Below, in pieces: positions 674 through 43,852 of a stretch of 64,000 nt of DNA. A program made the translations under genes and the position numbers. The notes beneath the pieces are model-generated. The model saw nothing but the letters and a program-made list of their open reading frames with translations, was not told the origin of the DNA and searched no databases. This DNA is from Pseudotevenvirus miller (lineage: Duplodnaviria > Heunggongvirae > Uroviricota > Caudoviricetes > Straboviridae): positions 50,895-114,894 of IMG/VR virus record IMGVR_UViG_2706796139_000001; one strand, 5' to 3'. Each line of letters begins with the position of its first letter. Position 1 is the stretch's first letter.

Positions 674-691
674 AACAAACGAAGCGTAATT

Positions 692-1532: not shown

Positions 1533-1539
1533 GGTTTAT

Positions 1540-1704
1540 ATGCAGTTTCGTGAAAAGATGCTATATCATCCAGACGGACATTTTGAGCAAGTATTTGTTC
1601 CGATGTCTCCGGTTAAATTCAAAGAACGCTACGGCGTTACTTTTAAAGAGTGGAAATCAAACCTCCATAAAGACGACTACCGGAAGAACTTTACGAATCT
1701 GTAA
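1540..1704 (+). CDS. small hypothetical protein (54 aa)
   Basis: ATG preceded by GAGG, 54 codons, ending just before a terminator hairpin. It is absent from the ORF track because it is under 60 aa. Confidence 0.35.
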   Translation: MQFREKMLYHPDGHFEQVFVPMSPVKFKERYGVTFKEWKSNLHKDDYRKNFTNL

Positions 1705-1732
1705 TAACCGCAGCATACGAAATTTAATCAAC

Positions 1733-1760
1733 AGGCTATCTTCGGATAGCCTTTTTTCTG
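1733..1760 (+). terminator. rho-independent terminator
   Basis: aggctatcTTCGgatagcct hairpin followed by a T-run. Confidence 0.55.
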
Positions 1761-1768
1761 GAGAAACT

Positions 1769-2335
1769 ATGCGCTATTTAAAATACGCAAGCTGGATCTT
1801 ACTGGTTCCGGTAGACATTATCACAGGTGTTCTTGCTATCCTGTTAGCCCCCTTTGTGGTTCCGTTCTATGATGAAAAAGTAGGACATCTGCCTAAAGGG
1901 TTCCGATGGATGGAAACCTATGATAACCCGATTGATGGTGACGGTGGACACATCGAACGCTGGAAAGATATTCGCAAATGGGGCGCTGTCGGTGTCTATG
2001 CTCAACGTGTGGCGTGGCTATGGCGTAACAAGGCGTATAACTTCGCGTATCATGTGCTGGGGCGTGAGTCTATATCACACACCTACTGGAAAGGAAACAA
2101 ACTGGTAGACAGCAGTTCAAGCGATCCTAAACATCATGGCTTCCTGGTGATGTGGAACGAATCTGCGTGGGGTGTATTCGGTTTCGTGCCGTGGCTACGT
2201 ATCCATAACATTCAATTCTGTCTGCGTGTCTATTGCGGGTGGAAACTGAAATCGGAAGTAAACAACCCAGACAATAAAGACCGTGTGATGCTGGCATTCC
2301 ACATCAACCCGTTCCGGTTCTATAAAATCAAGTAA
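1769..2335 (+). CDS. hypothetical protein, hydrophobic N-terminus (about 189 aa)
   Basis: Starts at M of MRYLKYASWILLVPVDIITGVLAILLAPFVV. The listed 1529..2335 ORF is an upstream read-through in the same frame. Confidence 0.5.
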   Translation: MRYLKYASWILLVPVDIITGVLAILLAPFVVPFYDEKVGHLPKGFRWMETYDNPIDGDGGHIERWKDIRKWGAVGVYAQRVAWLWRNKAYNFAYHVLGRESISHTYWKGNKLVDSSSSDPKHHGFLVMWNESAWGVFGFVPWLRIHNIQFCLRVYCGWKLKSEVNNPDNKDRVMLAFHINPFRFYKIK

Positions 2336-2344
2336 AGGTAATAT

Positions 2345-2707
2345 ATGAAAGCGTATCAAATTTTAGAAGGTTTACATACTGGTACTATCTATCTGGAAGA
2401 AGGAAACGATGTTCGGATCGTAGTATCAAAAACTCTCGAAATGGATTCAGTGATCGGAAAAGCTCGCGTTGTACCATTCGCAAAACGTGAAGTTGATATT
2501 GAGTTTCAACCGACTGTTAAAGTTGAAGGTGGACAGCACCTAAACGTGAATGTGCTACGTCGCGAAACCCTGGAAGATGCTGTGAAACATCCTGAGAAGT
2601 ACCCACAGTTAACGATCCGCGTTTCAGGTTATGCAGTTCGCTTTAATGCACTGACTCCAGAACAACAGCGCGACGTTATCGCCAGAACCTTTACGGAAAG
2701 CATGTAA
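2345..2707 (+). CDS. grcA: autonomous glycyl radical cofactor (GrcA/YfiD-like; T4 Y06I-like)
   Basis: The C-terminus [29 protein letters not shown] is the glycyl-radical motif of PflB/GrcA (RVSGY). Confidence 0.85.
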
Positions 2708-2988
2708 TGTCTATTGAAGATATCAAGGGGTATAAACCCCATACTGATGAAAAAATTACGATCGTGAATCGTATCAAAGCAGCAGAAAATGAACTGGGTG
2801 CTATCCTGGATGATCTTGATAAACGATATTCAGGTGATTACGCCTGTTCAGATCTGGAATCACACACAGAAAAAGAACTTGATGAAATGCTCGAACGTAC
2901 ACATCAAATTCAATTGGCAAAAGACCGACTGAAAGAAGCCTCTATGTGGGCGTGTCGTGCGGTGTTCCAGCCAGAAGAAAACTATTAA
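2707..2988 (+). CDS. hypothetical protein (93 aa)
   Basis: ORF translationally coupled to the grcA-like gene (ATGTAATG overlap). Confidence 0.5.
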   Translation: MSIEDIKGYKPHTDEKITIVNRIKAAENELGAILDDLDKRYSGDYACSDLESHTEKELDEMLERTHQIQLAKDRLKEASMWACRAVFQPEENY

Positions 2989-2994
2989 AATCAA

Positions 2995-3024
2995 GCCGTT
3001 GCCGAAAGGTGACGGCTTTTTTCG
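2995..3024 (+). terminator. rho-independent terminator
   Basis: agccgttgccGAAAggtgacggct hairpin followed by a T-run. Confidence 0.5.
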
Positions 3025-3113
3025 TTTATATCGAAAATAATGCTTGCGTTGAATCCGGCTTTCTTGTATCTTTAACCACGTAGGCAAGACAACTTAACTT
3101 TGAGGATGACATT

Positions 3114-3404
3114 ATGAAAACTTACAACATGAAAGACCTGGTTTGCTTCAAAACTCGTCGTGAAGCCCGTGCGTATGTTCTGGCGGCTGGTAAAAATACC
3201 TCTGCTGTAATCGACCTGGGTACTGATAAAGAGGTTGGTGCTCGTTGGGCCGCTGTTGTGGTTATCGCTGTCCCTGTTACCCCTGCTAAAACTCTGGTTC
3301 TGGGTGCTCGCAATAGCGAAACTTTGAACACCAGCACTTGCAATAACAGAGGCGTTCATAGTGTCAAAGTGTTCAAACGTCGCAGCATTGGTGCGAGGGC
3401 TTAA
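3114..3404 (+). CDS. hypothetical protein (96 aa)
   Basis: ORF with GAGG RBS. Ala/Val-rich. No recognised domain. Confidence 0.4.
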   Translation: MKTYNMKDLVCFKTRREARAYVLAAGKNTSAVIDLGTDKEVGARWAAVVVIAVPVTPAKTLVLGARNSETLNTSTCNNRGVHSVKVFKRRSIGARA

Positions 3405-3613
3405 TGATGGTAAATTTCAAAGCAGGTGATCTTATTTCACCAAAGAACCGAGAATGCATTAAAGAGTTCCCATATTGGGAAAATCTGGAGATTGTATCTT
3501 TCTGCTCTGATTTGTGTGAAGCGGTAGTACGTCAAAAGGATGGTTGGATGTGTAATCATTTTAACCTCGACCCAGAATTTGGTGAAGAGTTCGAAGTTGT
3601 TGGGAGTGTATGA
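3404..3613 (+). CDS. hypothetical protein (69 aa), Cys-containing
   Basis: ORF in a tight early-gene array. Confidence 0.35.
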   Translation: MMVNFKAGDLISPKNRECIKEFPYWENLEIVSFCSDLCEAVVRQKDGWMCNHFNLDPEFGEEFEVVGSV

Positions 3614-3615
3614 AA

Positions 3616-3821
3616 TGAGCAAAACCAAAGAATTAGAACAGAAAGTATTGGGGTTCATGAGTAACAGCGAAGATCGCTATGCGAAACACCTCATTGTTGA
3701 ACTGATCACCGAGTTACGCCGCCGTGACAAAGAGATTAAAGATCTGAAAGATGAAAAGCGTGTGGTTCGCGAGGTTGTTGTAGAACCAGTTGAATACAAC
3801 TTTGGCCCTGGTGGTGCATGA
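3616..3821 (+). CDS. hypothetical protein (68 aa)
   Basis: Starts MSKTKELEQK. The listed 3540..3821 ORF is an upstream extension. Confidence 0.4.
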
Positions 3822-4048
3822 TGCGATATGGTAAAAAAGACTATGTTCTTATAGTCGGTCAGCAATACGTAAAGCGTGATTTCTTCGGTGAACTGTTCCT
3901 TTCGAACAATCCTGAATTGATGTACTCATTCGAAACGGAAGAAGACGCGTATATTGCTAAGAACAACAGCAGAAATGCAGATATTCGTAACTTTGCTCGC
4001 GTATACGAGCGCAACACTTTAATAACTTACGAGGCATGTGATCAATGA
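3818..4048 (+). CDS. hypothetical protein (76 aa)
   Basis: ATGA overlap with the upstream gene. Confidence 0.4.
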   Translation: MMRYGKKDYVLIVGQQYVKRDFFGELFLSNNPELMYSFETEEDAYIAKNNSRNADIRNFARVYERNTLITYEACDQ

Positions 4049-4212
4049 AAAAATTTATCAACGCAGCATTACAAGAAATCTTCGACGCGCTGGAAGCCTG
4101 GAAGACACGCACAGACGTTTCTATCACTTCGGCATCCAATGGTACTACATACGACCGTTACGATCCTTCTCGTGGCTTACACAAGCCGTATGAGACTAAG
4201 GAATCAAAATGA
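4045..4212 (+). CDS. small hypothetical protein (55 aa)
   Basis: ATGA-coupled small ORF, not in the ORF track because it is under 60 aa. Confidence 0.3.
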   Translation: MKKFINAALQEIFDALEAWKTRTDVSITSASNGTTYDRYDPSRGLHKPYETKESK

Positions 4213-4361
4213 AGTATTACGGGTTTAAAACAAGTCATTACGGTAAAGCGTACCGCACTGACAACATCGATCGCAAACGTCCGTATTACGATTCTCTGGT
4301 ACGTGCAGGTCGTAAACGTGCTCGCCAGGAAGGGAAGAAGGAAGGAGAAGACCGTGGTTGA
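4209..4361 (+). CDS. small basic hypothetical protein (50 aa)
   Basis: ATGA-coupled ORF MKYYGFKTSHYGKAYRTDNIDRKRPYYDSLVRAGRKRARQEGKKEGEDRG. Confidence 0.3.
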   Translation: MKYYGFKTSHYGKAYRTDNIDRKRPYYDSLVRAGRKRARQEGKKEGEDRG

Positions 4362-4493
4362 TAATTCAGATCTGAATGAAGCACTTCGTTCTATTACTGC
4401 GAATACTAAACCGAAAAAGAGAACAGGAGAAATCATCTTTTTATGTGTATGGTATTTTGTGTTTAGCTTTGTTGTTGGCGCTGCATTTGCGAA

Positions 4494-4946
4494 ATGGTTC
4501 TTATAATGGATATCGGATCAGGTAGTCAATACCCATCATGCGCATTGAGCAACTTTGCTCCGCATCCGTTTACATTTGACGGGGTAGAATGTGCATCGAT
4601 GGAGGGCTTTTTACAAAGTCTGAAATTTAGCAATCCAGATATGCAAGCACATGTGTGTACTCTGGTCGGTAAGGCTGCAAAGTTCAAAGGCAAAAAGAAA
4701 AAATGGTGGACAACCCAAACCCTGTATTGGAAGGGTATTCCGATCCATCGTGAATCAGAAGCCTATCAGATCCTTATCGAAAACGCGTACAATGCGTTGT
4801 TCCTGAATGAAGGGTTTCGCCGTGCGTTGAAAGCAACCGGAAAAAGTACCTTGACTCATTCAATGGGAAAGAATAAGATGAATGAAACGGTGCTCACTGA
4901 ACGTGAGTTTGTGCGAAATTTAACCCGACTAAGGGATCTGCTATGA
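4494..4946 (+). CDS. NADAR / YbiA-like (DUF1768) domain protein
   Basis: SNFAPHPF...DG...S.E..FQ..KF pattern typical of the NADAR fold, 150 aa. Confidence 0.7.
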   Translation: MVLIMDIGSGSQYPSCALSNFAPHPFTFDGVECASMEGFLQSLKFSNPDMQAHVCTLVGKAAKFKGKKKKWWTTQTLYWKGIPIHRESEAYQILIENAYNALFLNEGFRRALKATGKSTLTHSMGKNKMNETVLTEREFVRNLTRLRDLL

Positions 4947-5161
4947 TTGGTTATTCAGTAGTTCAGATGTCTAACGGGAAATGGCGACTGTTTTATTATT
5001 TTCGTTGGTTTCCGTGGTATAAATGGACTCCGACCTTTGGTGATGGTTGCGGGAACGATACGGGTATTCCGGTTGAATACAAACAAAAGATTGATGTTAT
5101 TGATTGGCATCTTAAGAACGAACAATTAAAAGAAAGGTTGAAATTATTACAATGCTTATGA
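4943..5161 (+). CDS. hypothetical protein (72 aa), Trp-rich
   Basis: ATGA-coupled ORF. Confidence 0.35.
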   Translation: MIGYSVVQMSNGKWRLFYYFRWFPWYKWTPTFGDGCGNDTGIPVEYKQKIDVIDWHLKNEQLKERLKLLQCL

Positions 5162-5364
5162 TTTATTTCGCAATCGTAGTTGGTGTCTTGATATACCTTG
5201 CTATTGGTGTATACTGTGCAGCACGGTTTTCCTGGTGTTTTGGTGTAAGTCATAACGGCTACCATACATTCTGGGGTACTGTGTTACAATATACCATTTT
5301 CCCGTTGATTGTGTTGTTTTGGCCTTTCTTCGCGTTGTGGTTCATCTTTGCATTATTTGTCTGA
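5152..5364 (+). CDS. small membrane protein (70 aa)
   Basis: Two predicted TM helices (IYFAIVVGVLIYLAIGVY...FPLIVLFWPFFALWFIFALF). Confidence 0.4.
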   Translation: MLMIYFAIVVGVLIYLAIGVYCAARFSWCFGVSHNGYHTFWGTVLQYTIFPLIVLFWPFFALWFIFALFV

Positions 5365-5370
5365 GGTTAT

Positions 5371-5638
5371 TATGAGTGAAAATGAAAGAGTAGAATGCGC
5401 GTTCCTGTTCAAAGGCGCGATCAACCCATTGGCATTACTCCACGCACAAGGTGCATTGAGTTCTACAATAATCATGAGTGTTATCTACAAAGCTGGTGTG
5501 TATTACGTTACGATCGGCGCAAACAATATGCGCGTGATGGAAAGCTACGTTGAAAAATGCGGACACAGAGGTATTGTATTTAACCGTATTGATATGGATA
5601 TTCCACCATACGACGCAATTTATATGTACAGGGGTTGA
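5371..5638 (+). CDS. hypothetical protein (89 aa)
   Basis: Starts MSENERVECAF. The listed 5309 ORF is an upstream extension. Confidence 0.4.
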
Positions 5639-17944: not shown

Positions 17945-18595
17945 TTAACTGAATTTATTGTATAGGGTGAACTTAATACCCATATTATTCAGTGCTTTAC
18001 ATGTTGCTTCCAGGTCGCTAGGTGCAATCTCGACAACATACATTGCTTGTTTTAGCACAGGAACCGTTTCTGATTCTTCAAAAGATGTAAGGGTAGGTTT
18101 CACAACTTCCGGTTCCTTGACTACCTTTTTCTTCTGGTCGAACGATTCTTTGAACTTGTTGATGCGCACCAACATATCATCGATCAGTTCTGTATTCGCA
18201 CATTCAAACCGTTTGGTCTGTTCAAGCATACTTGTAATCTTTCCGTATGTTGTGCGTCTGGTAGTTTCCGTATACTTTGGATCTTCATAGCGATTGATAT
18301 TTTCGATAATCGCGTAAACATGCCCCAGGTTAGCACGGTCAAAATATGCGATAAGATGACCTCGCTTGAACACAAACATATACGGAACGTTGCCTACAAT
18401 ATAATGCGTTGCAGTTAACGCGCAATCCGAATCAAGCAGAAGATTAACCGCGTCGAAGTAAGGATAGATCTTGATATGAGTCTCAGGGATGCGAAAAACT
18501 TCTTCTTTGAAGTTCTTCGCACTTCTGTTGATCTCGTCCAGAGTCTTACCCATCATGGATGCAATGATTTCGATTTTTTTAGATACATAAGCCAT
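17945..18595 (-). CDS. hypothetical protein (216 aa)
   Basis: ORF with no recognised domain. Confidence 0.5.
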   Translation of the reverse strand: MAYVSKKIEIIASMMGKTLDEINRSAKNFKEEVFRIPETHIKIYPYFDAVNLLLDSDCALTATHYIVGNVPYMFVFKRGHLIAYFDRANLGHVYAIIENINRYEDPKYTETTRRTTYGKITSMLEQTKRFECANTELIDDMLVRINKFKESFDQKKKVVKEPEVVKPTLTSFEESETVPVLKQAMYVVEIAPSDLEATCKALNNMGIKFTLYNKFS

Positions 18596-18610
18596 ATTTC
18601 AAATTCTCTT

Positions 18611-18901
18611 TTAGTGCATGAAAGATTTTACGTACTTCAATATTTCTTCACGACATGTGTCAACGCTTGTGTTTTCGGCAATCATAGCATGACAAAGTAT
18701 CTCACCGTCAAGCCAAAACGTAAGCATGTATTGAATATCACGACCTTCTGTTGCTTCCTGATGATACTTGATTTTCGCGAAAGCAGTTTCGATACTTTCG
18801 GTTACTGTCAACATTTCGGAATCACCATCTACAGCAGCCATTTCTGCTGCATCGTCGTTATACGCGCTTTCCAGTTCTTCCCAGTATACTATCGTTATCA
18901 T
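18611..18901 (-). CDS. hypothetical protein (96 aa)
   Basis: ORF. Confidence 0.45.
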   Translation of the reverse strand: MITIVYWEELESAYNDDAAEMAAVDGDSEMLTVTESIETAFAKIKYHQEATEGRDIQYMLTFWLDGEILCHAMIAENTSVDTCREEILKYVKSFMH

Positions 18902-19034
18902 TGATTACCCCAAACATACTTTACATTTGCATAAAGGGCATTCAGCCTCTTTGATGCGTAGACGTTTCGTTGTTGTCTTCTTCGCCGTATTGTGATCATA
19001 TACATGAAGACAACGGAAGCAGATCACCCAACGT

Positions 19035-19502
19035 TTATCCGTCATAACCGCCACCGCACTTAACCTCACCTTCAATGAACAGTTCGCGGTTGTCTCTCAA
19101 AAGATTGTATTTCTTTTCGAGTTCCGGCCCGAATGCGTCAGCGTCTTCATAATAGCTATAATTATAACAACCGCATTCATCATCCCATTCAGGTTCATCA
19201 CCGCGTTCGTTGAAGTGTACGACTTTGAGATCGTCAACTCCAGACTCTTTCATTTTATCCCAGATATACCGGATGTCAACGCTATGGTAACTGAATGCTT
19301 CAAGGGTGATGTTATCACCATCGATTTGAGGGATACCCCATTTAGGACGTTGGTCATCGGTGATGATATCAAGCAAAGATTCTACGTTTTCGTGTCCGTA
19401 AATCTTCGCGACCTCTTCCTCTTTACCAGGACGAACAAGCCCGATCCCGATAATAAAGCTACTGCTTGAACTGTTACTTACAAAACCAGAACGGATCTTC
19501 AT
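19035..19502 (-). CDS. hypothetical acidic Cys-containing protein, paralog A with N-terminus MKIRSGFVSNSSSSSF
   Basis: 155 aa. The first 16 aa are identical to the 22913..23425 product, but encoded with different synonymous codons. Confidence 0.55.
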   Translation of the reverse strand: MKIRSGFVSNSSSSSFIIGIGLVRPGKEEEVAKIYGHENVESLLDIITDDQRPKWGIPQIDGDNITLEAFSYHSVDIRYIWDKMKESGVDDLKVVHFNERGDEPEWDDECGCYNYSYYEDADAFGPELEKKYNLLRDNRELFIEGEVKCGGGYDG

Positions 19503-19690
19503 CGTCTTGCCTCATATTTCGCGTTCTCAGCGATTTTTTCTTGATATATGTTATATGACATTACCAGAGGCGCAACCGCCACGATAAGCCCTATAAAGCA
19601 CACAGAGAACTCACGTTTATTGAAAGCCAGGAACGCAATTGCGCTCCCGACCACGAACACACCCAGTGCCAGTAAGAAGAATAACGTCAT
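19499..19690 (-). CDS. small membrane protein (63 aa)
   Basis: Two hydrophobic helices. Confidence 0.4.
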   Translation of the reverse strand: MTLFFLLALGVFVVGSAIAFLAFNKREFSVCFIGLIVAVAPLVMSYNIYQEKIAENAKYEARR

Positions 19691-20304
19691 TTCGGCAACG
19701 TGTCCATTTTGCGTGATTTTTCCAACAGGGTTTTGATTACCGTATCCATCGCCTGTTCTGTATCACCATCATGATAGATGATCGCGGTTTGATGCAAACC
19801 TTTCACCAGACGATTGATAATGTACGCCATTTCGGTCGGTAACAGTTTACCCGTTTTGTTGAATTTTTCAAACAGATTGAACAGTTCTTCGTTATTCCCT
19901 TTCTTACGGAAATTGAAGTTGTGCATCCCAGACAGAAGACTATCCAGATACAGAACTGTTTTGTTATCAGAGCGGAGGTGTCCACCGATTTTGTAGTAGT
20001 TGCTGAAAACGTATGGTGCTTCACGAACATCATCGATGTCGAAACCAGCATCATCGATATTGCCTACGTGGGAGAAGAAATCCGCATCGTTATCGAACAG
20101 ATTGATCGCGCCTTTCTTGTATGGGAATCCAGCCAGGTTAATGACTCCCTTTTCATACGCATCATCGTTATCAACGACAACGTATTCAGGAAGCATAGGG
20201 GCATATGGTTTGTTTTTGTCGTGGTTTTCGCGATACGCTAAAGGTTCAGCCAGATAGAGGATATCGCCTTGTTTGACTTCATCCCAAAAGATATTACGTG
20301 ACAT
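19687..20304 (-). CDS. hypothetical protein (about 205 aa) downstream of the vWA gene
   Basis: Starts MSRNIFWDEVKQGD with a GAGG RBS and an upstream gcccccTTTCgggggc hairpin. The listed 261 aa ORF is an extension into the vWA gene. Confidence 0.5.
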   Translation of the reverse strand: MSRNIFWDEVKQGDILYLAEPLAYRENHDKNKPYAPMLPEYVVVDNDDAYEKGVINLAGFPYKKGAINLFDNDADFFSHVGNIDDAGFDIDDVREAPYVFSNYYKIGGHLRSDNKTVLYLDSLLSGMHNFNFRKKGNNEELFNLFEKFNKTGKLLPTEMAYIINRLVKGLHQTAIIYHDGDTEQAMDTVIKTLLEKSRKMDTLPK

Positions 20305-20344
20305 ATTAAATTCCTCAACATGCCCCCTTTCGGGGGCTATATCA

Positions 20345-22564
20345 TTACAGTTTAACTTCTTTTTCTTCCAGGACGATTTCGCAATCGAATGTTGCACCTT
20401 CCCAGAACTTATGCGGGATAATGTCAGTCGCTTTAACCGATACTTTGGTTTCTTCGAAATCCATATCCGCAAACCATGCGTGGCCTACAACGATACCGTA
20501 CATTACACGGCTCAGGCGCTTGTTCAGTGCGCGTACTTCGTTGATGGTTGCCTTTGTTTCTTTATCAAGGTACTCGATTACCTTATCCTTGTCAAGCGCT
20601 GCGAGTTCAGCTTTAACAGCATCGTAAGCCCACAGGATGATCAGGTCGCCGTTGTTCAGTTTCTTCTTACCTTCGGCACGTTTCGCAACGGTTGCCGCTA
20701 CAGCAGGAAGGGAGGAAACACCCTTGATTTTCAGATTCAGTTCTTTCGACATATAAACATCAGTCGAATCGGTACGGGTTACTTTCGGGGAGAATCCATA
20801 ATCACGAATACCCTGTTCAGATAACCATTCACCAGCGGCTTCACCGTATTTCTGTTTCAGACCTTCGGCATTACGTAAACCGATCGCATCGTCACGGAAG
20901 AACTTCATCACCTTCTGGCGACCTTTCAGGATTTCCAGACGGATAGAGTCGTTTACATACTCTTTACCGGAGATCCCGCGAGTCATCGCACGGTTAACCA
21001 GAGGCAGACTTGTAAAGTCAACCAGAACCGACATACGGTCTTCACCGATTTTTGCCAGCGGCTTGATGGTCAAACCAGAAGCGCGGAGGTTTTTCAGTGT
21101 CGGAATATCAGTTTCCAGAGGCAGAACCTTAACGTTTACGATACCGTCTTTAACGATGGTAAAGTTACGCACCTGCTTAGTTTCGATCTGTTCAGGCAGT
21201 CCGAATTCTTTCTGCTTACTTTCTGGGATAGTTACGTAACCAGCCAGATCCGTGTTAATGGAAATGTTCGGACGTGAACTGTTACCGACCAGATGCTTAA
21301 CCGATACTTTGGTTGTAGTCTGGGTAAATTTCGGTGTCCAGATTTCGTGCGTTACCATTTGCGCGGCTAATGCTTTGCGTTCTTCCGGTGTTTTCGCATT
21401 TGCGATCTGTTCTGACAGTTGATCCAGAGTATCATCTTCTTTCTGTACTGTCTGACGGCCTGTACGGTTGTACGCCCAGTGTTCAGAAGACAGGTCGATC
21501 ACTGTGTCAGTTTCTGCCAACAGTTCGAGAGCATCAACCAGAGTGAATGCGTTTTCGTCTGGAACCATGTTGTAATCAACACCCTCAATCAGACGTTTAC
21601 CCGCATCAACTACCGCTTCCGCGATCAGGTCTTTGGCGTTGGAATAATCCTGCTTAGTAAAGCAGTTATCGTATGCCTTAATCAGACGAACGTCACCGAC
21701 TTTTTTCAGCACTTTCCATGCCAGATCAGGGTTCATGGTGTGCAGTGCATGATACAGCACCACGTACAGAACCTGTTCACCTTCCATCGTAGCCGGATCG
21801 AATCCGTCGATGTCGTTGATTGCGTTTTCACCCAGCGCCCAGATGTTTTTGATATGCTCAGGAACCAGCACAACACCGTTTGCAGCGTTAAGGACATACA
21901 CGCGCCCTTCGTCAATGTAGATCGCATGGGTAGCATCACCTACTTTAACTTCAACACGCGCTGATGTTTGAGCGGTAATGATTTCAGCAAATGCTGGCTC
22001 GTATGCGTCGAAACCTTCAACGAATTTATGCAATGCGTTGGTTGCTTCTGCCATTTTTTCCAGCAGAGGACGGTTAACATAGTAACCATATTCCAGGAAC
22101 GCAATGCTGTTAAACGTCAGCGGGAGAACCGCACACGCTTTCAGGATGTCATCGGTACGCCAGCAGTTATCATAACCATCCGTCAGGAAGATCAGGCTGT
22201 TCAGGTTTCCGTTTTCGGATTGCAGGTCAGTTGCAATCTCAGCAGCCAGATTCAGAGGTTCGACGAAACCAGTACAACCAGTAGGTTTCAGATAACGGTC
22301 GATCGCGGTGCAGATATTGGTCAGATCCGATACGTTGCTAACCTTCTCACCACGGAACACAGTACCGTAATCGCCTTTGCTGGAGAAGTACAGGATCGAA
22401 ACAGTATCATCCTGTTTAACCAGGCTTGCCAGATTCGCTTTCAGGTGCTTACGAATTTTCGGCAATTCACTGTACATTGAACCGGAAACGTCGCAAACGA
22501 AAACGTGGTTGGTCGGAGTCGGTTTAGATACTGCATTTTTGAATTCGATATTTGTAATTGACAT
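20345..22564 (-). CDS. von Willebrand factor A (vWA) domain protein, 739 aa
   Basis: N-terminal MIDAS motif VFVCDVSGSMYS ... LFLTDGYDN. The long C-terminal region has no recognisable domain. Not Alt-like or RIIA-like. Confidence 0.8.
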   Translation of the reverse strand: MSITNIEFKNAVSKPTPTNHVFVCDVSGSMYSELPKIRKHLKANLASLVKQDDTVSILYFSSKGDYGTVFRGEKVSNVSDLTNICTAIDRYLKPTGCTGFVEPLNLAAEIATDLQSENGNLNSLIFLTDGYDNCWRTDDILKACAVLPLTFNSIAFLEYGYYVNRPLLEKMAEATNALHKFVEGFDAYEPAFAEIITAQTSARVEVKVGDATHAIYIDEGRVYVLNAANGVVLVPEHIKNIWALGENAINDIDGFDPATMEGEQVLYVVLYHALHTMNPDLAWKVLKKVGDVRLIKAYDNCFTKQDYSNAKDLIAEAVVDAGKRLIEGVDYNMVPDENAFTLVDALELLAETDTVIDLSSEHWAYNRTGRQTVQKEDDTLDQLSEQIANAKTPEERKALAAQMVTHEIWTPKFTQTTTKVSVKHLVGNSSRPNISINTDLAGYVTIPESKQKEFGLPEQIETKQVRNFTIVKDGIVNVKVLPLETDIPTLKNLRASGLTIKPLAKIGEDRMSVLVDFTSLPLVNRAMTRGISGKEYVNDSIRLEILKGRQKVMKFFRDDAIGLRNAEGLKQKYGEAAGEWLSEQGIRDYGFSPKVTRTDSTDVYMSKELNLKIKGVSSLPAVAATVAKRAEGKKKLNNGDLIILWAYDAVKAELAALDKDKVIEYLDKETKATINEVRALNKRLSRVMYGIVVGHAWFADMDFEETKVSVKATDIIPHKFWEGATFDCEIVLEEKEVKL

Positions 22565-22574
22565 TTAAATTTTC

Positions 22575-22913
22575 TCAGTATTTGGTTGTTTTATGTGCGT
22601 TTAAAATGCTTTGGATTTTTTCGGAAATCGTTTGCTGGTCTGGTTCACATTCCAACTTACCGCCAATCGCCTTATAAAAATCTTCAACAGAGTTTACGTT
22701 AAAATCCTGCATATTGAAACCTAAAGAGTACATGTGTGGATTTTTGAATTCGTAAACATCTACATCATACTCGTTAAGGTCGAAACGTTCAATATATTTC
22801 TTCAAAGAAAATAAATCGAACGGTAGCGGGAGGTGCTGTTCAATCGTTACAGGTTCCCCCAGCTTATGCGCTTTTAGTGTTGCCGCTTTCGTATACGTCA
22901 TTTCTTCTTTCAT
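22575..22913 (-). CDS. hypothetical protein (112 aa)
   Basis: ORF between paralog B and the vWA gene. Confidence 0.45.
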   Translation of the reverse strand: MKEEMTYTKAATLKAHKLGEPVTIEQHLPLPFDLFSLKKYIERFDLNEYDVDVYEFKNPHMYSLGFNMQDFNVNSVEDFYKAIGGKLECEPDQQTISEKIQSILNAHKTTKY

Positions 22914-23425
22914 CAGTGGTGACTCTTTGATGTATGTTCAAGGTTGCGGAAAATGTTACCATGTTCCAGTTGGGTTCCGATAGGACCGCATTCATCGGAG
23001 TATGTGAACTCGTAGATAAACACGCCGCCCTGGTTCCCGTACTTCATGTTGTATTCTTCATACAACCACATCTTGATCAGAGCGTCTTTCTCTTCGGTTT
23101 CTAAATCGTACCAATCCCGACCATCATATGCAAGCGCAATTTTAGGATTTGAACGATAACGGGTTTCGGCGCTGTCTTCGGTTTCCCAATCATAACGCTT
23201 ATCATCATAAAACGATTCAAAGCTGTTACCCATATGACCGCCCAAATCACGGTGTACATGGTTGACCACTTCTTCGGATGTCAGCGACGGGGTATAGTAA
23301 CCGCACGTAGGATGACAGTCACCCATCATTTCGCGGAGGTTGTCGATATCAGTCGGATCTTTCGGGAACCGGACAATGAAACTACTTGATGAACTATTGC
23401 TAACAAAACCAGAACGAATTTTCAT
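22913..23425 (-). CDS. hypothetical acidic Cys-containing protein, paralog B with N-terminus MKIRSGFVSNSSSSSF
   Basis: 170 aa. N-terminal 16 aa identical to paralog A. Confidence 0.55.
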   Translation of the reverse strand: MKIRSGFVSNSSSSSFIVRFPKDPTDIDNLREMMGDCHPTCGYYTPSLTSEEVVNHVHRDLGGHMGNSFESFYDDKRYDWETEDSAETRYRSNPKIALAYDGRDWYDLETEEKDALIKMWLYEEYNMKYGNQGGVFIYEFTYSDECGPIGTQLEHGNIFRNLEHTSKSHH

Positions 23426-23670
23426 TTTATTTTCCTGAATTTAATTTCAGTGATACCACGATTAACCGTATAGCAAGACAAGCTGGTACGTTCTAATATA
23501 GTACCAGTGAATCCGTCAAAGACGCATACTGTATATGAGAAACATGCATCATCCAGCGGGTTATTGTTAATGTACGCGATAACAGTGTTTAAGTCCACAG
23601 TCGCGCATACACATGTACACGATTGGTCATAGTTGTCATCAAACTCTTTTTCAATAGTATAAATTTTCAC
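23422..23670 (-). CDS. hypothetical protein (82 aa), Cys-rich
   Basis: ORF. Confidence 0.4.
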   Translation of the reverse strand: MKIYTIEKEFDDNYDQSCTCVCATVDLNTVIAYINNNPLDDACFSYTVCVFDGFTGTILERTSLSCYTVNRGITEIKFRKIK

Positions 23671-23909
23671 GATGCTTTACCTTTTCTTTCAGATTTCAGG
23701 ACAATGTTACTGTAAGGATCTTTTGCTACCAGTTCCCACAGGTCGCCAGGATGTTCCCCGCTACGGTAAACTGACGAACGCATGATCTCATTAAACTTGC
23801 TTAGGGCTTCGTCGATATCGTCATACCCGCGTTTAAGGGGCTTACGGTTGCGACGTATGAAGAACATTTCTTTGGTCTTCTCCCAGCGTTCGGAGTTTTT
23901 AACCTTCAT
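23667..23909 (-). CDS. hypothetical protein (80 aa)
   Basis: ORF. Confidence 0.4.
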   Translation of the reverse strand: MKVKNSERWEKTKEMFFIRRNRKPLKRGYDDIDEALSKFNEIMRSSVYRSGEHPGDLWELVAKDPYSNIVLKSERKGKAS

Positions 23910-24180
23910 TAATTTGCACCATATTAGACATAATCTCTTCGAATGTCACGAGTTTTTCTTCATAAAAGTCTAAATCGTCGCTCCATTCTTCGCGGTTGCC
24001 TTTAATTTTGCTAACCGCGACCTTTTTATCGTTTTCCCACACGGTTACTTCAATGCGGTCGCCAATATAAGGAAAGCTGGGATGTTTGTTGATTACATCA
24101 ACACAGGTTAGCAGGGATTCGGATACGTGAACAACTTCACCGAAATCATAATCCCCATGACGTGCTAGAACATAGATCAT
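23899..24180 (-). CDS. hypothetical protein (93 aa)
   Basis: ORF. Confidence 0.4.
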   Translation of the reverse strand: MIYVLARHGDYDFGEVVHVSESLLTCVDVINKHPSFPYIGDRIEVTVWENDKKVAVSKIKGNREEWSDDLDFYEEKLVTFEEIMSNMVQINEG

Positions 24181-24741: not shown

Positions 24742-24996
24742 TTAAAAAAGATGCGTTAAATGCCCTGCATTGCTGGGATATTCTACGTAATCACCACGGA
24801 AGATGTTCAAATCTTTGTCAAATTTAAACCCTTGACCTTGAACATCTTCATGGCGCGACACATAAGAAACTCCATATTTTTCAAGGTCTTCCATATACAT
24901 TTCAGTGATTCTCTTCGCCTTATCCATCCCGCGCCCCTCGAATCGAGAACGTCGATAATGTGTAAGAAGAAACGCGTATAATTTTTCGTATGTCAT
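24742..24996 (-). CDS. hypothetical protein (84 aa)
   Basis: ORF. Confidence 0.4.
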   Translation of the reverse strand: MTYEKLYAFLLTHYRRSRFEGRGMDKAKRITEMYMEDLEKYGVSYVSRHEDVQGQGFKFDKDLNIFRGDYVEYPSNAGHLTHLF

Positions 24997-25904
24997 TTCA
25001 ACACCTTTCTGATTTGTTTTGCTATCGCTTCGATCACCGGAACCGATACAGAGTTACCAGCTTGTTTGTATGCCTGTTTCTTGCTTGTGGGGATCTGGAA
25101 TGTATCGGGGAATCCCTGCAAGCGAAAACATTCACGCGGGGTTAATCGTCGTGGGTTCTTCCCGTCCTGCAACACCAGACACTGAACACCATCCTTATAA
25201 TATTGCGCTGTGATGGTTCCTGTGTGCGTAGAATCGCTTGTGACGGCCTGATAACCAAACCCCTTACCATTCGCCTTGTTTCGTTCCTTACGCTCTCTAA
25301 AGCCTTTCCATGCGTTATCTGATAGGGTGTATGAATCATCAGCATCTTCGAGGATGTCGCCCACTCTCGTAGGGGTACGCGGGGGAACCGGAAACGAAAA
25401 GAATACATCTTCCAGGAAACAAACAATAAACACACGTTCACGTCGCTGGGGCAATCCGAAATCTTTTGTATTCAGTCGTTGATAGAATACGTTGTATCCT
25501 TCGGCCTCCAGAAGCCCGTAAATCGTTTTAAACGTCTTTCCCTTGTCATGGGTTAGTAGTTCAGGCACGTTCTCAAAGAACAGCACACGGGGCTTTTTAG
25601 CGCGTATGATGCGGAGTATTTCGAAGAACACCGTACCGCGAACATCATCGAACCCCAGTTTTAATCCTGCTTTACTGAATGCCTGACACGGGAACCCAGC
25701 CAACAGGATATCGTGATCAGGTACTTTGTTTTCGTCGATAGCGAACAAGTCACCTTCGAGATTATCACCGCCCCAGTTAGCGGCATATGTTTGTTGCGCG
25801 TATTTGTCAATCTCAGCAGTCAACGCACATTCAATACCATTGAACGCACGATCGAAGCCCAGACGAACACCGCCCACGCCAGCGCATAAATCAATTACTT
25901 TCAT
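24993..25904 (-). CDS. DNA (cytosine-5)-methyltransferase (Dcm-like)
   Basis: All canonical C5-MTase motifs present: I DLCAGVGG, IV GFPCQAFS, VI ENV, VIII QRRERVFIV, X GNSVSVPV. 303 aa. Confidence 0.9.
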   Translation of the reverse strand: MKVIDLCAGVGGVRLGFDRAFNGIECALTAEIDKYAQQTYAANWGGDNLEGDLFAIDENKVPDHDILLAGFPCQAFSKAGLKLGFDDVRGTVFFEILRIIRAKKPRVLFFENVPELLTHDKGKTFKTIYGLLEAEGYNVFYQRLNTKDFGLPQRRERVFIVCFLEDVFFSFPVPPRTPTRVGDILEDADDSYTLSDNAWKGFRERKERNKANGKGFGYQAVTSDSTHTGTITAQYYKDGVQCLVLQDGKNPRRLTPRECFRLQGFPDTFQIPTSKKQAYKQAGNSVSVPVIEAIAKQIRKVLK

Positions 25905-42405: not shown

Positions 42406-42698
42406 AAGTGACTAATCTCAGCAGATTTCATTTTCATCTGGATAGCCTGAACAGCAAGGTCGCGCTGTTCTTCGGTTTCGTATCCAGCCCACGTTACAGA
42501 ATCTTTATGAACGAAGTGAAACACAATAGCAGGTTTCCACACGTTACCAGGACACGGAACAGTAGCATCAGTTTGTATCCAAGAAACGTGGTCTGTGTTT
42601 ACCGGATAATTGGTACATTCAACACTACCACTATCAACAAACATTGTATGCGGTGCGTACAAACGTGTATATTTTTTGATTCTGGATATAATCAACAT
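42402..42698 (-). CDS. hypothetical protein (98 aa)
   Basis: ORF immediately downstream of the radical SAM gene. Confidence 0.4.
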   Translation of the reverse strand: MLIISRIKKYTRLYAPHTMFVDSGSVECTNYPVNTDHVSWIQTDATVPCPGNVWKPAIVFHFVHKDSVTWAGYETEEQRDLAVQAIQMKMKSAEISHL

Positions 42699-43852
42699 TA
42701 TTTCAACTCCACCGCGTATACATCAGTTTCGGGGGCTTTGTGTACGCGCATATCTTTACCGCATACTGCATAAGCCGGACAGTTACGACAACCGTTATGA
42801 TCCTTATTACCGATCAGTTCATTACGGAACTGTTTGGTTTTCGGATGTTCCCAGATATCCTTAATGAAATCGTTCGCTTCCAGGACATTCAAACCTTCTT
42901 CCCAACCACCTTCAACCCAGCGTTCGGTAAACGAACAAGGGAAGAACTCGCCTTTCTCGTTGATGTACGAGCTAAACATGGTTGCTTCACAATCTTCGGC
43001 ATACTGTTTGTACTGTTCGAAGTTTGGGTGTCCTTCCATCGCTTCAACGAAAGCGGGGGCTGAACAGCTATCGAAACCAAATCCTACACCAGAATCAAGG
43101 CAGTATTCAACAAGTTTTTTGTATTGTTCGCGGGTAACAGTATCCCAGTTCTTACCGCGTCCCTTTTGTTTCAGCCCCAGGAACACAATCGCATTGACTT
43201 GTTTCAGGCGCGGATCATTCTTCACAGCGTCAACCACGTTAAACGCGTCATCATAGGTTTTAGAGCTAACCATGAAATGAAGGTTGATCTGCTGTTGTCC
43301 TGCTTCTGACAGGTTCGCTACCGAGTCGAAAGCGACATCGAAGCCAGCATGTTTATAAACCGATACCGCAACAGCCCCAGCAACCGCAGCCAAACGCGCT
43401 GCAACGTCTTTTGATACATCGGCAATGGTAAGGTTCGGCACAATGCCTTTAGAACGCGCATAGGCCATCATATCGAACATATCAGGGTTTGTTTGTCCCT
43501 GTGCATCAGCACCGAGGGCGCATTGAGTCAACCAGGGCATTTTATCAATGATAGATTTGAACGATTTCAGATCCATATTGTAGCCGTTAGGGTTGTTAGA
43601 CTTGTAACAGAAACCGCATAGCTTACCAGCGGGGCCATTACATTTCGTGGTGATCTCAATATCGAGAATTTCAGGGAAAGGCGCGTATGTCGGATCGCTT
43701 GCAAAGGTTGTACCCCAACGAGCGAATTCGCCAGTGTCAACATTGAAATTGTAGTTGTACCACTTAGAGCGAGCAAAGCGCATATTACCCTGCTGGTAAA
43801 TCATCAGCGAAGGGGCTTTCATTACAGTTTGTGCGCGGTCAATAATATCCAT
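42698..43852 (-). CDS. radical SAM-like enzyme with C-terminal Cys-rich (SPASM/twitch-like) domain
   Basis: DIEITTKCNGPAGKLCGFCY resembles the radical SAM core (T..CN..C.YC) but with Cx7Cx2C spacing. The C-terminal half has 7 Cys, including GCRNCPAYAVCG. Start uncertain (MDIIDRAQ or upstream). Confidence 0.55.
   Translation of the reverse strand: MDIIDRAQTVMKAPSLMIYQQGNMRFARSKWYNYNFNVDTGEFARWGTTFASDPTYAPFPEILDIEITTKCNGPAGKLCGFCYKSNNPNGYNMDLKSFKSIIDKMPWLTQCALGADAQGQTNPDMFDMMAYARSKGIVPNLTIADVSKDVAARLAAVAGAVAVSVYKHAGFDVAFDSVANLSEAGQQQINLHFMVSSKTYDDAFNVVDAVKNDPRLKQVNAIVFLGLKQKGRGKNWDTVTREQYKKLVEYCLDSGVGFGFDSCSAPAFVEAMEGHPNFEQYKQYAEDCEATMFSSYINEKGEFFPCSFTERWVEGGWEEGLNVLEANDFIKDIWEHPKTKQFRNELIGNKDHNGCRNCPAYAVCGKDMRVHKAPETDVYAVELK

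What the first reader, a model, noticed from the sequence alone, without database searches (positions are those of the whole stretch)
19035..23425. 739 aa vWA-domain protein module bracketed by two paralogs sharing an identical 16 aa N-terminus
A 739 aa protein with an N-terminal vWA/MIDAS domain (DVSGSM...T...D) and about 550 aa of unrecognisable sequence sits in the hyperplastic early region. A 205 aa partner and a small membrane protein lie downstream. The module is flanked by two acidic Cys-containing paralogs (19035..19502 and 22913..23425) that both begin MKIRSGFVSNSSSSSF. T4 has no vWA protein. Phage vWA proteins usually pair with a MoxR/CobS-type AAA+ ATPase, which is absent here. This looks like an unusual, possibly new, accessory module that may be injected or act against the host.
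Basis: partly seen in the sequence, partly recalled or inferred. Interest (0 to 1): 0.7.

Follow-up and report, generated by a model that had tools for sequence, protein, structure and literature searches.

The report
Phage proteins tagged for radical-SAM maturation
The vWA gene is an ordinary, already catalogued phage gene, but its two flanking genes belong to a very large, undescribed phage protein family whose near-invariant 16-residue start is genetically tied to a radical-SAM enzyme that probably modifies it.

Summary
The window comes from Citrobacter phage CfP1, an RB43-like T4 relative. The 739 aa protein has a real vWA domain with an intact metal-binding (MIDAS) site.

The "module bracketed by paralogs" reading does not hold.
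- **The vWA protein stands alone.** It is catalogued as phrog_2426 and occurs in about 500 phage isolates. One of them is Salmonella phage Vi01, which has neither flanking-type gene.
- **The two flanking proteins share only their start.** Residues 1-18 match 17/18 and a profile comparison aligns only the first 36 columns. Their bodies are otherwise unrelated.

That start, MK(I)RxGFVSNSSSSSF ("SNS"), opens proteins in at least 14,452 sequence clusters. These are mostly small, very diverse proteins in tandem arrays on phage contigs.

SNS genes are linked to one radical-SAM (rSAM) family with a SPASM/twitch domain.
- 84 of 200 motif-seeded loci contain the enzyme gene, at a median distance of 432 bp and always on the same strand.
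- 68 of 80 enzyme-seeded loci contain SNS genes, 248 in total, all on the enzyme's strand.
- Isolate phages carry both genes or neither.
- The motif variant tracks the enzyme subfamily.

CfP1's own copy lies at window 42698-43852.

Best reading: the SNS start is the recognition and modification site of a phage-encoded rSAM protein maturase. The chemistry and the biological role are unknown.

The parts
22913..23425 (-). SNS-A: 170 aa protein of the SNS family, in the subfamily with C-terminal motifs YSDExG...EHGNIFRN...SHH
23378..23425 (-). SNS motif of SNS-A, MKIRSGFVSNSSSSSF (residues 1-16): the predicted recognition and modification site for the rSAM maturase
22575..22913 (-). 112 aa hypothetical protein (phrog_7677). 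Its start overlaps the SNS-A stop.
   Evidence: No Pfam hit. Unrelated to the gene upstream of the vWA gene in Dickeya phage RC-2014.
20345..22564 (-). 739 aa stand-alone vWA protein (phrog_2426): a vWA domain, then a beta-sandwich, then about 450 aa with no structural match
21965..22513 (-). vWA/MIDAS domain (about residues 18-200) with D25-x-S27-x-S29, T98 and D129
19687..20304 (-). 205 aa hypothetical protein (phrog_7309), restricted to RB43-like phages
   Evidence: No Pfam, NCBIfam, PADLOC or PDB-sequence match.
19499..19690 (-). 63 aa protein with two hydrophobic segments (phrog_7160)
   Evidence: Only weak, sub-threshold membrane-protein Pfam hits.
19035..19502 (-). SNS-B: 155 aa acidic protein of the SNS family, in the subfamily ending ...GGGYDG / GAGRNG
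   Evidence: Shares only columns 1-36 with the SNS-A family. The phrog_132 'head-tail adaptor' hit covers residues 64-147.
19455..19502 (-). SNS motif of SNS-B, MKIRSGFVSNSSSSSF (residues 1-16)
42698..43852 (-). Radical SAM enzyme with a SPASM/twitch-type auxiliary-cluster domain (384 aa): the predicted maturase of the two SNS proteins. It lies outside the reported interval.
   Evidence: tblastn gives 41% identity and E 4e-71 to the SNS-linked rSAM family. Pfam SPASM scores 26 bits against a cutoff of 21.5. NCBIfam hits are to rSAM peptide maturases and fall below family cutoffs. Invariant Cys are C52/C56/C59 plus C240, C265, C283 and C332. Annotated 'radical SAM protein' in KX245890.

Best explanation
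The interval lies in the leftward, tightly packed accessory region of the RB43-like phage CfP1. It holds two unrelated things that happen to be neighbours.

**(1) The 739 aa protein.** It is a stand-alone member of a widespread phage family. It has a vWA domain with a complete metal-ion-dependent adhesion site, then a beta-sandwich, which is the arrangement seen in ArnB, Sec23/24 and PDB 4fx5. About 450 residues follow with no recognisable relative. It most likely acts inside the infected cell as a metal-dependent protein-binding adaptor. Its target is unknown.

**(2) The two flanking proteins.** These are two of the phage's substrates for its own radical SAM enzyme at window 42698-43852.
- Their near-invariant N-terminal 16-mer MK(I)RxGFVSNSSSSSF is a flexible tail ahead of the first beta-strand.
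- The enzyme recognises this tail and modifies it after translation.
- The variable bodies carry different functions.

**Shown:** the genetic coupling, the protein-level selection on the motif, its strictly N-terminal position and the enzyme class.

**Inferred:**
- The motif is both the docking site and the modification site.
- The chemistry is unknown. Candidates are oxidation of a Ser to an aldehyde as in anSME/BtrN-type dehydrogenases, or a carbon-carbon cross-link on the F-V-S triplet as in three-residue cyclophane maturases.
- The products are host-takeover or counter-defence factors.
For: **SNS family**
- The same start is present 12 times in one 8 kb stretch of a metagenomic phage contig.
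- 14,452 clusters at 50% identity match the family profile.
- 192 unique proteins fall into 69 BLAST clusters once the N-terminus is trimmed.

**Selection acts on the protein**
- There are 576 distinct gene starts.
- Met sits exactly 6 residues before F7 in 537 of them.
- All six Ser codons and all six Arg codons are used.

**Coupling to the rSAM enzyme**
- The rSAM gene was the only strongly recurrent neighbour.
- 84 of 200 motif-seeded loci contain it, at a median 432 bp and on the same strand in 84/84.
- In the reverse test, 68 of 80 rSAM-seeded loci hold 248 SNS genes, all on the rSAM strand, 206 of them downstream. Some of the 12 'negatives' carry variant motifs.
- Among 50,697 isolate phages the rSAM gene (174 records) and SNS-A (175 records) have near-identical genus counts.
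- The one outlier, Vibrio phage D479, has 5 SNS genes upstream of its rSAM gene.
- Vi01 has neither gene.
- Bacterial chromosomes carry a cassette of a ~135 aa gene, an SNS gene and an rSAM gene in several phyla.
- The motif variant co-varies with the enzyme subfamily.

**Enzyme class**
- Pfam Radical_SAM and SPASM hits.
- The nearest solved relatives are SkfB, BtrN and SuiB.

**N-terminal tail**
- Residues 1-10 have pLDDT below 50 in an otherwise confident model.

**vWA protein**
-.
- It is independent of SNS and rSAM.
Against: - No biochemical evidence exists that any SNS protein is modified.
- In CfP1 the rSAM gene is 19-24 kb from the two SNS genes, so adjacency does not apply in this genome.
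- Most SNS loci were found with a pattern that demanded the motif. Its apparent invariance in those sets is therefore partly built in. The rSAM-seeded set is the less biased sample.
- Many loci are short fragments, so absence of the rSAM gene in 116 of 200 motif-seeded loci cannot be interpreted.
- Co-location could partly reflect shared residence in hypervariable accessory regions.
- No RiPP-recognition element was detected in the enzyme, and I did not test for one rigorously.
- vWA-type genes of three different families occur in 20 of 281 SNS/rSAM loci. One is a 27%-identical homologue of the 739 aa protein in a 307 kb contig. A loose functional link between vWA proteins and SNS arrays is therefore not excluded.
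Confidence: 0.65

Rival explanations
1. The shared N-terminus is a targeting peptide. It would work like the capsid-targeting sequence of T4 internal proteins, or like a secretion or injection signal. It would load many different cargo proteins into the virion or export them, and the radical SAM gene would be an unrelated neighbour.
For: The architecture is a conserved short N-terminal peptide plus polymorphic cargo, in tandem arrays within hyperplastic regions. This resembles the T4 internal-protein locus (from my own knowledge of T4 biology). The N-terminal 10 residues are predicted to be flexible.
Against: - The motif is almost invariant across very different phage and bacterial lineages. 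A capsid-targeting peptide would co-evolve with its own scaffold.
- No conserved protease site follows it; positions 19 onward are variable.
- There is no hydrophobic signal-peptide core.
- It occurs in bacterial chromosomal cassettes with no virion genes nearby.
- This reading does not explain the strict rSAM linkage, the same-strand rule or the motif-enzyme co-variation.
Confidence: 0.1
2. SNS proteins are enzymes of one very divergent fold. The Ser-rich N-terminal loop would be part of the active site. The radical SAM protein would be their activating enzyme, as anSME is for sulfatases or an activase is for glycyl-radical enzymes.
For: - In the SNS-A subfamily the N-terminal motif co-occurs with invariant D144, E154, H155 and terminal His residues. 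That looks like a catalytic constellation.
- Many subfamilies have an acidic D/E-x-x-G motif after a strand, plus a conserved extreme C-terminus.
- 'R-x-G-F' faintly recalls the glycyl-radical motif.
Against: - The bodies fall into at least 69 unrelated BLAST clusters, including Zn-ribbon types and 72-100 aa proteins.
- The profile comparison of the two window families finds nothing beyond column 36.
- The sulfatase motif (C/S)xPxR is absent.
- Glycyl-radical sites are C-terminal and use PFL-AE-type activases, not SPASM/twitch enzymes (from my own knowledge).
- No fold match was found in the PDB.
Confidence: 0.15
3. One reading: SNS-A, the 112 aa gene, the vWA gene, the 205 aa gene, the TM gene and SNS-B form one functional accessory module built around the vWA protein.
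For: - The arrangement is conserved in about 175 RB43-like isolates.
- The genes are tightly packed with overlapping stops and starts.
- vWA-type genes occur near SNS arrays in 20 of 281 loci, including one distant homologue of this vWA.
Against: - Those isolates are close relatives (at least 82% DNA identity), so shared gene order among them carries little weight.
- The vWA family is present in more than 300 Ackermannviridae and other phages without SNS, rSAM, the 205 aa gene or the 112 aa gene.
- About 93% of SNS/rSAM loci have no vWA gene.
Confidence: 0.08
4. The repeated start is a nucleic-acid element, such as a recombination cassette or a translational operator, and not a protein feature.
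For: T4-type genomes do carry mobile regulatory cassettes at gene starts (from my own knowledge).
Against: - The two window copies differ at 9 synonymous positions in 18 codons and have unrelated upstream sequence.
- Across 547 copies every Ser and Arg codon family is used while the amino acids stay fixed.
Confidence: 0.01

Closest known systems
Radical SAM/SPASM-twitch peptide and protein maturases with linked precursor genes (RiPP-type systems; solved examples SkfB, SuiB; QhpD and PqqE as concepts)
   Same: - The enzyme has a CxxxCxxC radical SAM core and a C-terminal Cys-rich auxiliary-cluster domain.
- The enzyme gene lies in the same operon orientation as one to many genes that share a conserved short sequence but differ elsewhere.
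   Different: - The conserved sequence is the extreme N-terminus itself and is Ser-rich with no Cys.
- The 'precursors' are folded proteins of 70-300 aa, not short peptides.
- There are at least 14,452 clusters, mostly on phage contigs.
- No RRE domain, protease or exporter is linked.
- The enzyme scores far below every NCBIfam family cutoff.
HXS antiphage system (HxsB/HxsC rSAM enzymes maturing the HxsA protein effector; PMC13128918)
   Same: rSAM enzymes mature a full-size protein effector on a short Ser-containing motif, in the context of phage-host conflict.
   Different: - HXS is bacterial and defensive, with two rSAM enzymes plus HxsD.
- Its His-Xaa-Ser repeats are internal, and HxsA is periplasmic and N-terminally processed.
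- Here the system is mainly phage-encoded, with one enzyme and an N-terminal F-V-S-N-S-S-S-S-S motif.
- No sequence relationship was tested or implied.
Anaerobic sulfatase-maturating enzyme (anSME/AtsB) and BtrN-type rSAM dehydrogenases
   Same: These are SPASM/twitch rSAM enzymes that can oxidise a Ser side chain in a protein substrate. BtrN is among the nearest solved sequences.
   Different: The sulfatase target motif (C/S)xPxR is absent from SNS proteins. No sulfatase fold is present. The rSAM enzyme does not reach any anSME model cutoff.
T4 internal proteins with a shared capsid-targeting sequence
   Same: Diverse small proteins in a hyperplastic locus of T4-type phages share a short N-terminal peptide.
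   Different: There is no sequence similarity and no gp21-type cleavage site. The SNS motif is conserved far beyond T4-type phages and in bacteria, and it is coupled to an rSAM enzyme.
ArnB / Sec23-Sec24 / 4fx5-type vWA plus beta-sandwich proteins (for the 739 aa protein)
   Different: - Sequence identity is only 12-17%.
- About 450 extra C-terminal residues have no match.
- No FHA/kinase partner (ArnA-type) or coat partner is present.
- The protein is phage-encoded and stand-alone.
MoxR/CobS AAA+ with vWA pairs (CobT, BatA/B, NorD, TerY/TerF)
   Different: No AAA+ ATPase, Ter, kinase or phosphatase gene appears among the annotated neighbours in three phage families.

Membership tests
vWA (von Willebrand factor A) domain, MIDAS-containing | Sequence match to the vWA profiles above the curated threshold | tested here: met
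   VWA_3 scores 29.7 against 27, and VWA 26.2 against 23.8. VWA_2 at 26.6 is just under its cutoff of 27.
vWA (von Willebrand factor A) domain, MIDAS-containing | MIDAS residues DxSxS...T...D | tested here: met
   D25-V-S27-G-S29, T98 and D129. All are invariant or at least 90% conserved in 63 homologues.
vWA (von Willebrand factor A) domain, MIDAS-containing | Rossmann-like alpha/beta fold that superposes on solved vWA domains | tested here: met
MoxR/CobS AAA+ with vWA (CobT, BatA, NorD) or TerY-type systems | A partner AAA+ ATPase, or Ter/PP2C/kinase genes, adjacent to the vWA gene | tested here: not met
   No such gene is annotated within about 5-6 kb in phage Miller, within about 5 kb in Dickeya RC-2014, or within the 50 kb stretch around the gene in Vi01. 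This rests on annotation and Pfam scans of the immediate neighbours, not on an exhaustive scan of the genome.
ArnB/Sec23-24-type vWA plus beta-sandwich core | A vWA domain followed by a beta-sandwich that superposes as one unit | tested here: met
ArnB/Sec23-24-type vWA plus beta-sandwich core | A cognate partner (FHA protein ArnA plus kinases, or coat subunits) | tested here: not met
   None appears among the neighbours. The resemblance is structural only.
Radical SAM / SPASM-twitch peptide-protein maturase system | A CxxxCxxC radical SAM cluster motif in the enzyme | tested here: met
   Canonical in relatives (Pfam Radical_SAM E 5e-11 and 2e-10). C52, C56 and C59 are conserved. The window copy has an insertion giving C-x8-C-x2-C and gave no Pfam Radical_SAM hit at E<=0.01.
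Radical SAM / SPASM-twitch peptide-protein maturase system | A C-terminal auxiliary Fe-S cluster domain | tested here: met
   Pfam SPASM scores 26 bits against a cutoff of 21.5 on the window protein. There are four invariant C-terminal Cys, which fits one auxiliary cluster (twitch-like) better than two.
Radical SAM / SPASM-twitch peptide-protein maturase system | Genetically linked substrate genes that share a recognition sequence | tested here: met
Radical SAM / SPASM-twitch peptide-protein maturase system | A demonstrated post-translational modification of the substrate | not testable with these tools
   Needs mass spectrometry or in-vitro reconstitution.
Radical SAM / SPASM-twitch peptide-protein maturase system | Membership of a named maturase family (anSME, MftC, PqqE, sactisynthase and others) | tested here: not met
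   The best NCBIfam scores are 28-34 bits, against family cutoffs of 170-650.
T4-type capsid-targeting sequence (internal proteins) | A short N-terminal peptide ending in a prohead-protease site (L/I-x-E), specific to the phage lineage | tested here: not met
   No conserved residue follows position 18. The motif is shared by unrelated phages and by bacterial cassettes. Virion presence was not tested.
Sulfatase / anSME substrate | The (C/S)-x-(P/A)-x-R motif | tested here: not met
   Absent from the SNS motif.

The most novel reading that the evidence does not exclude
SNS proteins form a vast polymorphic arsenal of phage effectors, with a smaller bacterial branch. Each receives the same radical-SAM-installed modification on its N-terminal 16-mer. 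This would be a virus-encoded, protein-level counterpart of RiPP maturation, in which one enzyme arms dozens of unrelated cargo domains per genome for host takeover or counter-defence.
Probability: 0.4. Interest if true: 0.9.

Novelty: new variant of a known kind. Interest (0 to 1): 0.72.

Why it matters
**The SNS-rSAM pair.** If the coupling is functional, it would define a new kind of substrate for radical SAM maturases: whole proteins tagged by one almost invariant N-terminal peptide.
- It would attach one shared, testable hypothesis (a common N-terminal modification) to more than 14,000 clusters of 'hypothetical' proteins. These are mostly from large virulent phages, plus a cassette found in several bacterial phyla.
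- A single enzyme and a 16-residue tag that tolerates arbitrary cargo would also be attractive as a protein-engineering handle.
- The question is directly testable with two clones from an ordinary coliphage relative (RB43, RB16, CfP1).

**The vWA gene.** The result is mainly a clean-up.
- It is a known, widespread, stand-alone family and not a new module.
- Current automatic labels such as 'minor tail protein' for it, and 'head-tail adaptor' for SNS-B, are unsupported.

Tried and rejected
- **Paralogy beyond the N-terminus.** BLASTP and hhalign of the two family alignments found none.
- **DNA-level repeat.** Rejected by synonymous differences.
- **Known families for the SNS proteins.**
  - Pfam and NCBIfam and PADLOC gave nothing for the two window proteins.
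  - Pfam on 53 diverse members gave nothing.
  - Full-text search for the motif string found 0 papers.
  - The Aravind-lab jumbo-phage survey mentions neither the motif nor radical SAM.
- **A 675 aa + 218 aa gene pair near SNS genes in L002.** Tested as possible vWA/205 aa analogues; unrelated.
- **A conserved gene upstream of the vWA gene.** The window's 112 aa protein and the Dickeya 180 aa protein are unrelated.
- **The 205 aa protein.** No hit in the PDB sequence search.
- **Promoter and terminator scan of the interval.** Uninformative: promoter-like hits were no more than the shuffled expectation and there were 0 terminators.
- **The search for related loci with the 18-sequence rSAM alignment.** Failed because no conserved stretch was available. 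It worked with a 5-sequence alignment. The single-protein version returned only RB43-like contigs.
- **'Flagellimonas marina' locus with the same SNS-vWA-SNS bracket.** This looked like independent evidence, but the contig is 178 kb and its vWA is 89% identical. It is most likely a contaminating RB43-like phage.
Full report
**Origin and anatomy**

The window is 100% identical over the query interval (window 18500-24000) to Citrobacter phage vB_CfrM_CfP1 (KX245890), a Pseudotevenvirus of the RB43/RB16/Miller group. Window position 1 corresponds to record position 50895.

The interval 19035-23425 holds six tightly packed genes on the - strand.

| Gene | Coordinates | Size | PHROG |
|---|---|---|---|
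| SNS-A | 22913-23425 | 170 aa | phrog_7397 |
| hypothetical | 22575-22913 | 112 aa | phrog_7677 |
| vWA protein | 20345-22564 | 739 aa | phrog_2426 |
| hypothetical | 19687-20304 | 205 aa | phrog_7309 |
| two-segment hydrophobic protein | 19499-19690 | 63 aa | phrog_7160 |
| SNS-B | 19035-19502 | 155 aa | partial hits only (phrog_132, phrog_7397) |

The first five match an existing PHROG family of unknown function over their full length; SNS-B has only partial hits. All are 'hypothetical' in the deposited records. Stops and starts overlap at 23422-23425, at 22913, at 19687-19690 and at 19499-19502. A consensus scan found no convincing internal promoter or terminator.

The vWA call is sound. 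Two Pfam vWA models pass their thresholds. A profile of 63 homologues hits vWA structures in the PDB. The MIDAS residues D25, S27, S29, T98 and D129 are invariant or nearly so.

The two flanking proteins do begin with the same 17 of 18 residues. The underlying DNA differs at nine synonymous positions and the upstream sequence is unrelated.

**The vWA protein**

Full-length relatives of 700-770 aa are abundant, with 277 hits at E<=1e-3 among the 8,000 candidates scored. They occur in 504 isolate phages:
- RB43-like phages
- essentially all Ackermannviridae (Vi01, Limestonevirus, Serratia 3M, Erwinia Bue1)
- Shewanella phage Thanatos
- Vibrio phage VmeM-32
- Rhizobium phages of the Pootjesviridae
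- some Bacillus phages

No neighbour is conserved with it outside the RB43-like clade.
- In Dickeya phage RC-2014 and in Vi01 it sits between unrelated small genes and an acyl carrier protein.
- The upstream genes are unrelated.
- The 205 aa 'partner' is restricted to the 174 RB43-like records.
- No AAA+ partner is annotated nearby.

In a Vi01-like phage the VWA protein gave one spectrum in a virion preparation (PMC10892097). It is therefore unlikely to be a significant structural or injected protein.

This gene is best described as a known, stand-alone, conserved phage protein. It is probably an intracellular MIDAS-dependent adaptor, and its function is unknown.

**The flanking genes are not a bracket**

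BLASTP and profile-profile comparison show that SNS-A and SNS-B share only the first 18-36 positions. The relatives of SNS-A first suggested what this means. Proteins of 154-274 aa at about 30% identity keep MKIRSGFVSNSSSSSF unchanged, together with a C-terminal YSDxxG...EHGNIFRN...SHH, around a variable middle.

Scanning fetched contigs then showed 12 genes in 8 kb of one metagenomic phage contig that all start with the motif and continue differently.

The family is very large.
- The same pattern found 93 stretches in GTDB genomes. Most are MAG contigs, and a few are cultured Firmicutes.
- A profile search of 1.84 billion representatives found 14,452 clusters at E<=1e-3.
- Complete SNS proteins have a median length of 130 aa.
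- With the N-terminus trimmed, 192 unique sequences fall into 69 BLAST clusters. These include Zn-ribbon types and groups ending GGY(N/D)G, SEGGY, GTRxC or SHH.

The motif behaves as a protein feature. Among 576 distinct gene starts the initiator Met lies exactly six residues before F7 in 537. All Ser and Arg codon families are used, which shows selection on the peptide and not on the nucleic acid.

No library or paper describes it.
- Pfam, NCBIfam and PADLOC have no model for it.
- In that model residues 1-10 are the only low-confidence segment.
- A full-text search for the motif found nothing.

**The link to a radical SAM enzyme**

I clustered all other ORFs in the motif-seeded loci. One neighbour stood out: a ~345 aa protein with CxxxCxxC and a Cys-rich C-terminus, present in 45 of the 120 motif-seeded IMG/VR loci.
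- It matches Pfam Radical_SAM and SPASM.
- Its nearest solved relatives are SkfB, BtrN and SuiB.
- It has four invariant C-terminal cysteines, which fits a twitch-like single auxiliary cluster.
- It falls far below every named NCBIfam maturase family.

The window carries a homologue at 42698-43852, with 41% identity and E 4e-71.

The association holds in every direction I could test.

| Test | Result |
|---|---|
| Motif-seeded loci (200) | 84 contain the enzyme gene; median 432 bp from the nearest SNS start; same strand in 84/84 |
| Enzyme-seeded loci (80; SNS genes found with a relaxed motif pattern) | 68 contain 248 SNS genes; all on the enzyme's strand; 206 downstream |
| Enzyme-seeded 'negatives' (12) | several carry variant motifs, e.g. 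GFVANSSSSDF and GFVSNSSSISF |
| 50,697 isolate phages | enzyme in 174 records and SNS-A in 175, with near-identical genus counts |
| Vibrio phage D479 (257 kb), the one extra record | 5 SNS genes upstream of its enzyme gene, same strand |
| Vi01, complete genome | neither gene |
| CfP1 (894 bp unscanned) | exactly two SNS genes |
| CfP1, 64 kb window only | one enzyme gene (tblastn was run on the window only) |

Bacterial chromosomes carry a compact cassette: a ~135 aa gene, an SNS gene, an rSAM gene, and in Firmicutes a further ~300 aa gene. It occurs in Acetatifactor muris, Veillonella parvula and Lachnobacterium, and in MAGs of Verrucomicrobia, Sulfuricurvum and Terriglobales.

That bacterial enzyme subfamily pairs with the motif variants GFVTNSSSTSF or GFVSNSSSTSF, and the SNS gene lies upstream of the enzyme gene. 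The phage subfamily pairs mainly with GFVSNSSSSSF, and the SNS genes lie downstream.

**Interpretation**

The simplest account is that the SNS 16-mer is the docking and modification site of this maturase. Phages have attached it to many unrelated small domains. In CfP1 the two substrates and the enzyme have drifted about 20 kb apart within the same leftward region.

Three points remain inferred.
- **That a modification occurs at all.**
- **Its chemistry.** Ser oxidation in the anSME/BtrN manner, or an aromatic-to-C-beta cross-link on F-V-S, are the two precedents I consider most plausible. This rests on general knowledge of SPASM/twitch enzymes.
- **The role of the products.** The tandem, fast-diverging arrays in accessory regions of large virulent phages suggest host takeover or counter-defence. 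The bacterial cassette next to a trypsin-NACHT gene suggests a role in biological conflict. The rSAM-matured HxsA effector of the HXS defence system is the closest functional precedent (PMC13128918).

**Rivals**

- **Targeting peptide.** This fits the 'constant head, variable cargo' design. It does not fit the cross-lineage invariance, the absence of a cleavage site, the bacterial cassettes or the enzyme linkage.
- **Common catalytic fold with an activating enzyme.** This is possible for individual subfamilies such as SNS-A. It is hard to reconcile with the diversity of the bodies.
- **One vWA-centred module.** This is contradicted by the distribution of the vWA gene. I note, however, that vWA genes of three different families lie in 20 of 281 SNS/rSAM loci. 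One is a 27%-identical homologue in a 307 kb contig. A loose association cannot be excluded.

**Caveats**

- Motif-seeded sets overstate the invariance of the motif.
- Loci are fragments, so absences within them mean little.
- MAG taxonomy cannot be trusted for host assignment.
- At least one 'bacterial' contig (Flagellimonas marina, 178 kb) is most likely a contaminating RB43-like phage.

**Verdict**

The described features are real. The vWA gene is an ordinary, known hypothetical family and not a new module. The shared N-terminus leads to a large protein family coupled to a radical SAM enzyme that I could not find described anywhere. It deserves experimental follow-up.

Noticed in passing
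window 42698-43852 (-): Radical SAM / SPASM-twitch gene, annotated only as 'radical SAM protein'. Its cluster motif carries an insertion (CNGPAGKLCGFC) compared with CxxxCxxC in relatives.
   Followed up: yes
L004 3636-5168 and 13589-14510 (JGI 3300033075 Ga0364574_11282): A phage contig with 12 SNS genes also encodes a DUF2828/DUF7788 (TROVE-like vWA) protein. It also encodes a protein of at least 831 aa with Vault_3 and MVP_shoulder domains, that is, a major-vault-protein-like gene on a phage contig.
   Followed up: no
L134 1061-7997 (Acetatifactor muris DSM 23669) and L164 5009-7757 (Veillonella parvula): A conserved bacterial cassette: a ~140 aa gene, then an SNS gene (137 aa, MKIRNGFVTNSSSTSF), then an rSAM gene, then a ~300-330 aa gene with a PF21648 'integron cassette protein' domain. 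In A. muris it sits next to a 984 aa trypsin-NACHT protein and an MBL-fold protein. The ~135 aa partner recurs in about 14 genome loci from several phyla.
   Followed up: partly
L013 (rSAM ORF, - strand): One rSAM homologue appears to be interrupted by an intein-like insertion right after the cluster motif region (CSPAG...VHNC).
   Followed up: no
L143 (NZ_JBHSCL010000010.1, 'Flagellimonas marina', 178,077 bp contig): The contig has the size of an RB43-like genome. It carries the same SNS-vWA-SNS arrangement, with a vWA protein 89% identical to the window's. It is most likely phage contamination of a Bacteroidota assembly.
   Followed up: partly
window 19035-19502 and 20345-22564, in other records (e.g. 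PV425437, PP889466, PQ657829): Automatic annotations call a gene in this interval (probably SNS-B) 'head-tail adaptor', via a partial phrog_132 hit to residues 64-147. They call the vWA protein 'minor tail protein'. Nothing found here supports either label.
   Followed up: partly
L238 8440-10446: Downstream of an rSAM homologue lie five tandem paralogues of 132-146 aa with a different shared start (M..K....LH..LK). They are followed by two proteins with variant SNS starts (MKIRLGFVANSSSSDF and MKHRLRHVANSSSSGF). This may be a second substrate class or a diverged motif.
   Followed up: no
SNS/rSAM loci in general (clusters): Recurrent but much rarer neighbours of SNS arrays:
- NAD-salvage genes: nicotinamide phosphoribosyltransferase (NAMPT), a PncA-like isochorismatase, ribose-phosphate pyrophosphokinase (PRPP synthetase) and a PP-loop NAD synthetase
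- a macro-domain protein
- a nucleotidyltransferase

This is typical cargo of accessory regions. The function labels come from reading the sequences, not from a profile search.
   Followed up: no
window 24993-25904 (-): A C-5 cytosine DNA methyltransferase gene lies 1.5 kb from SNS-A. It is annotated as such in phage Miller.
   Followed up: no
KX245890 record positions 1-5398 (outside the window): Three consecutive CDSs are all annotated 'rIIb protein' in the CfP1 record. This is probably an annotation error for rIIA/rIIB.
   Followed up: no
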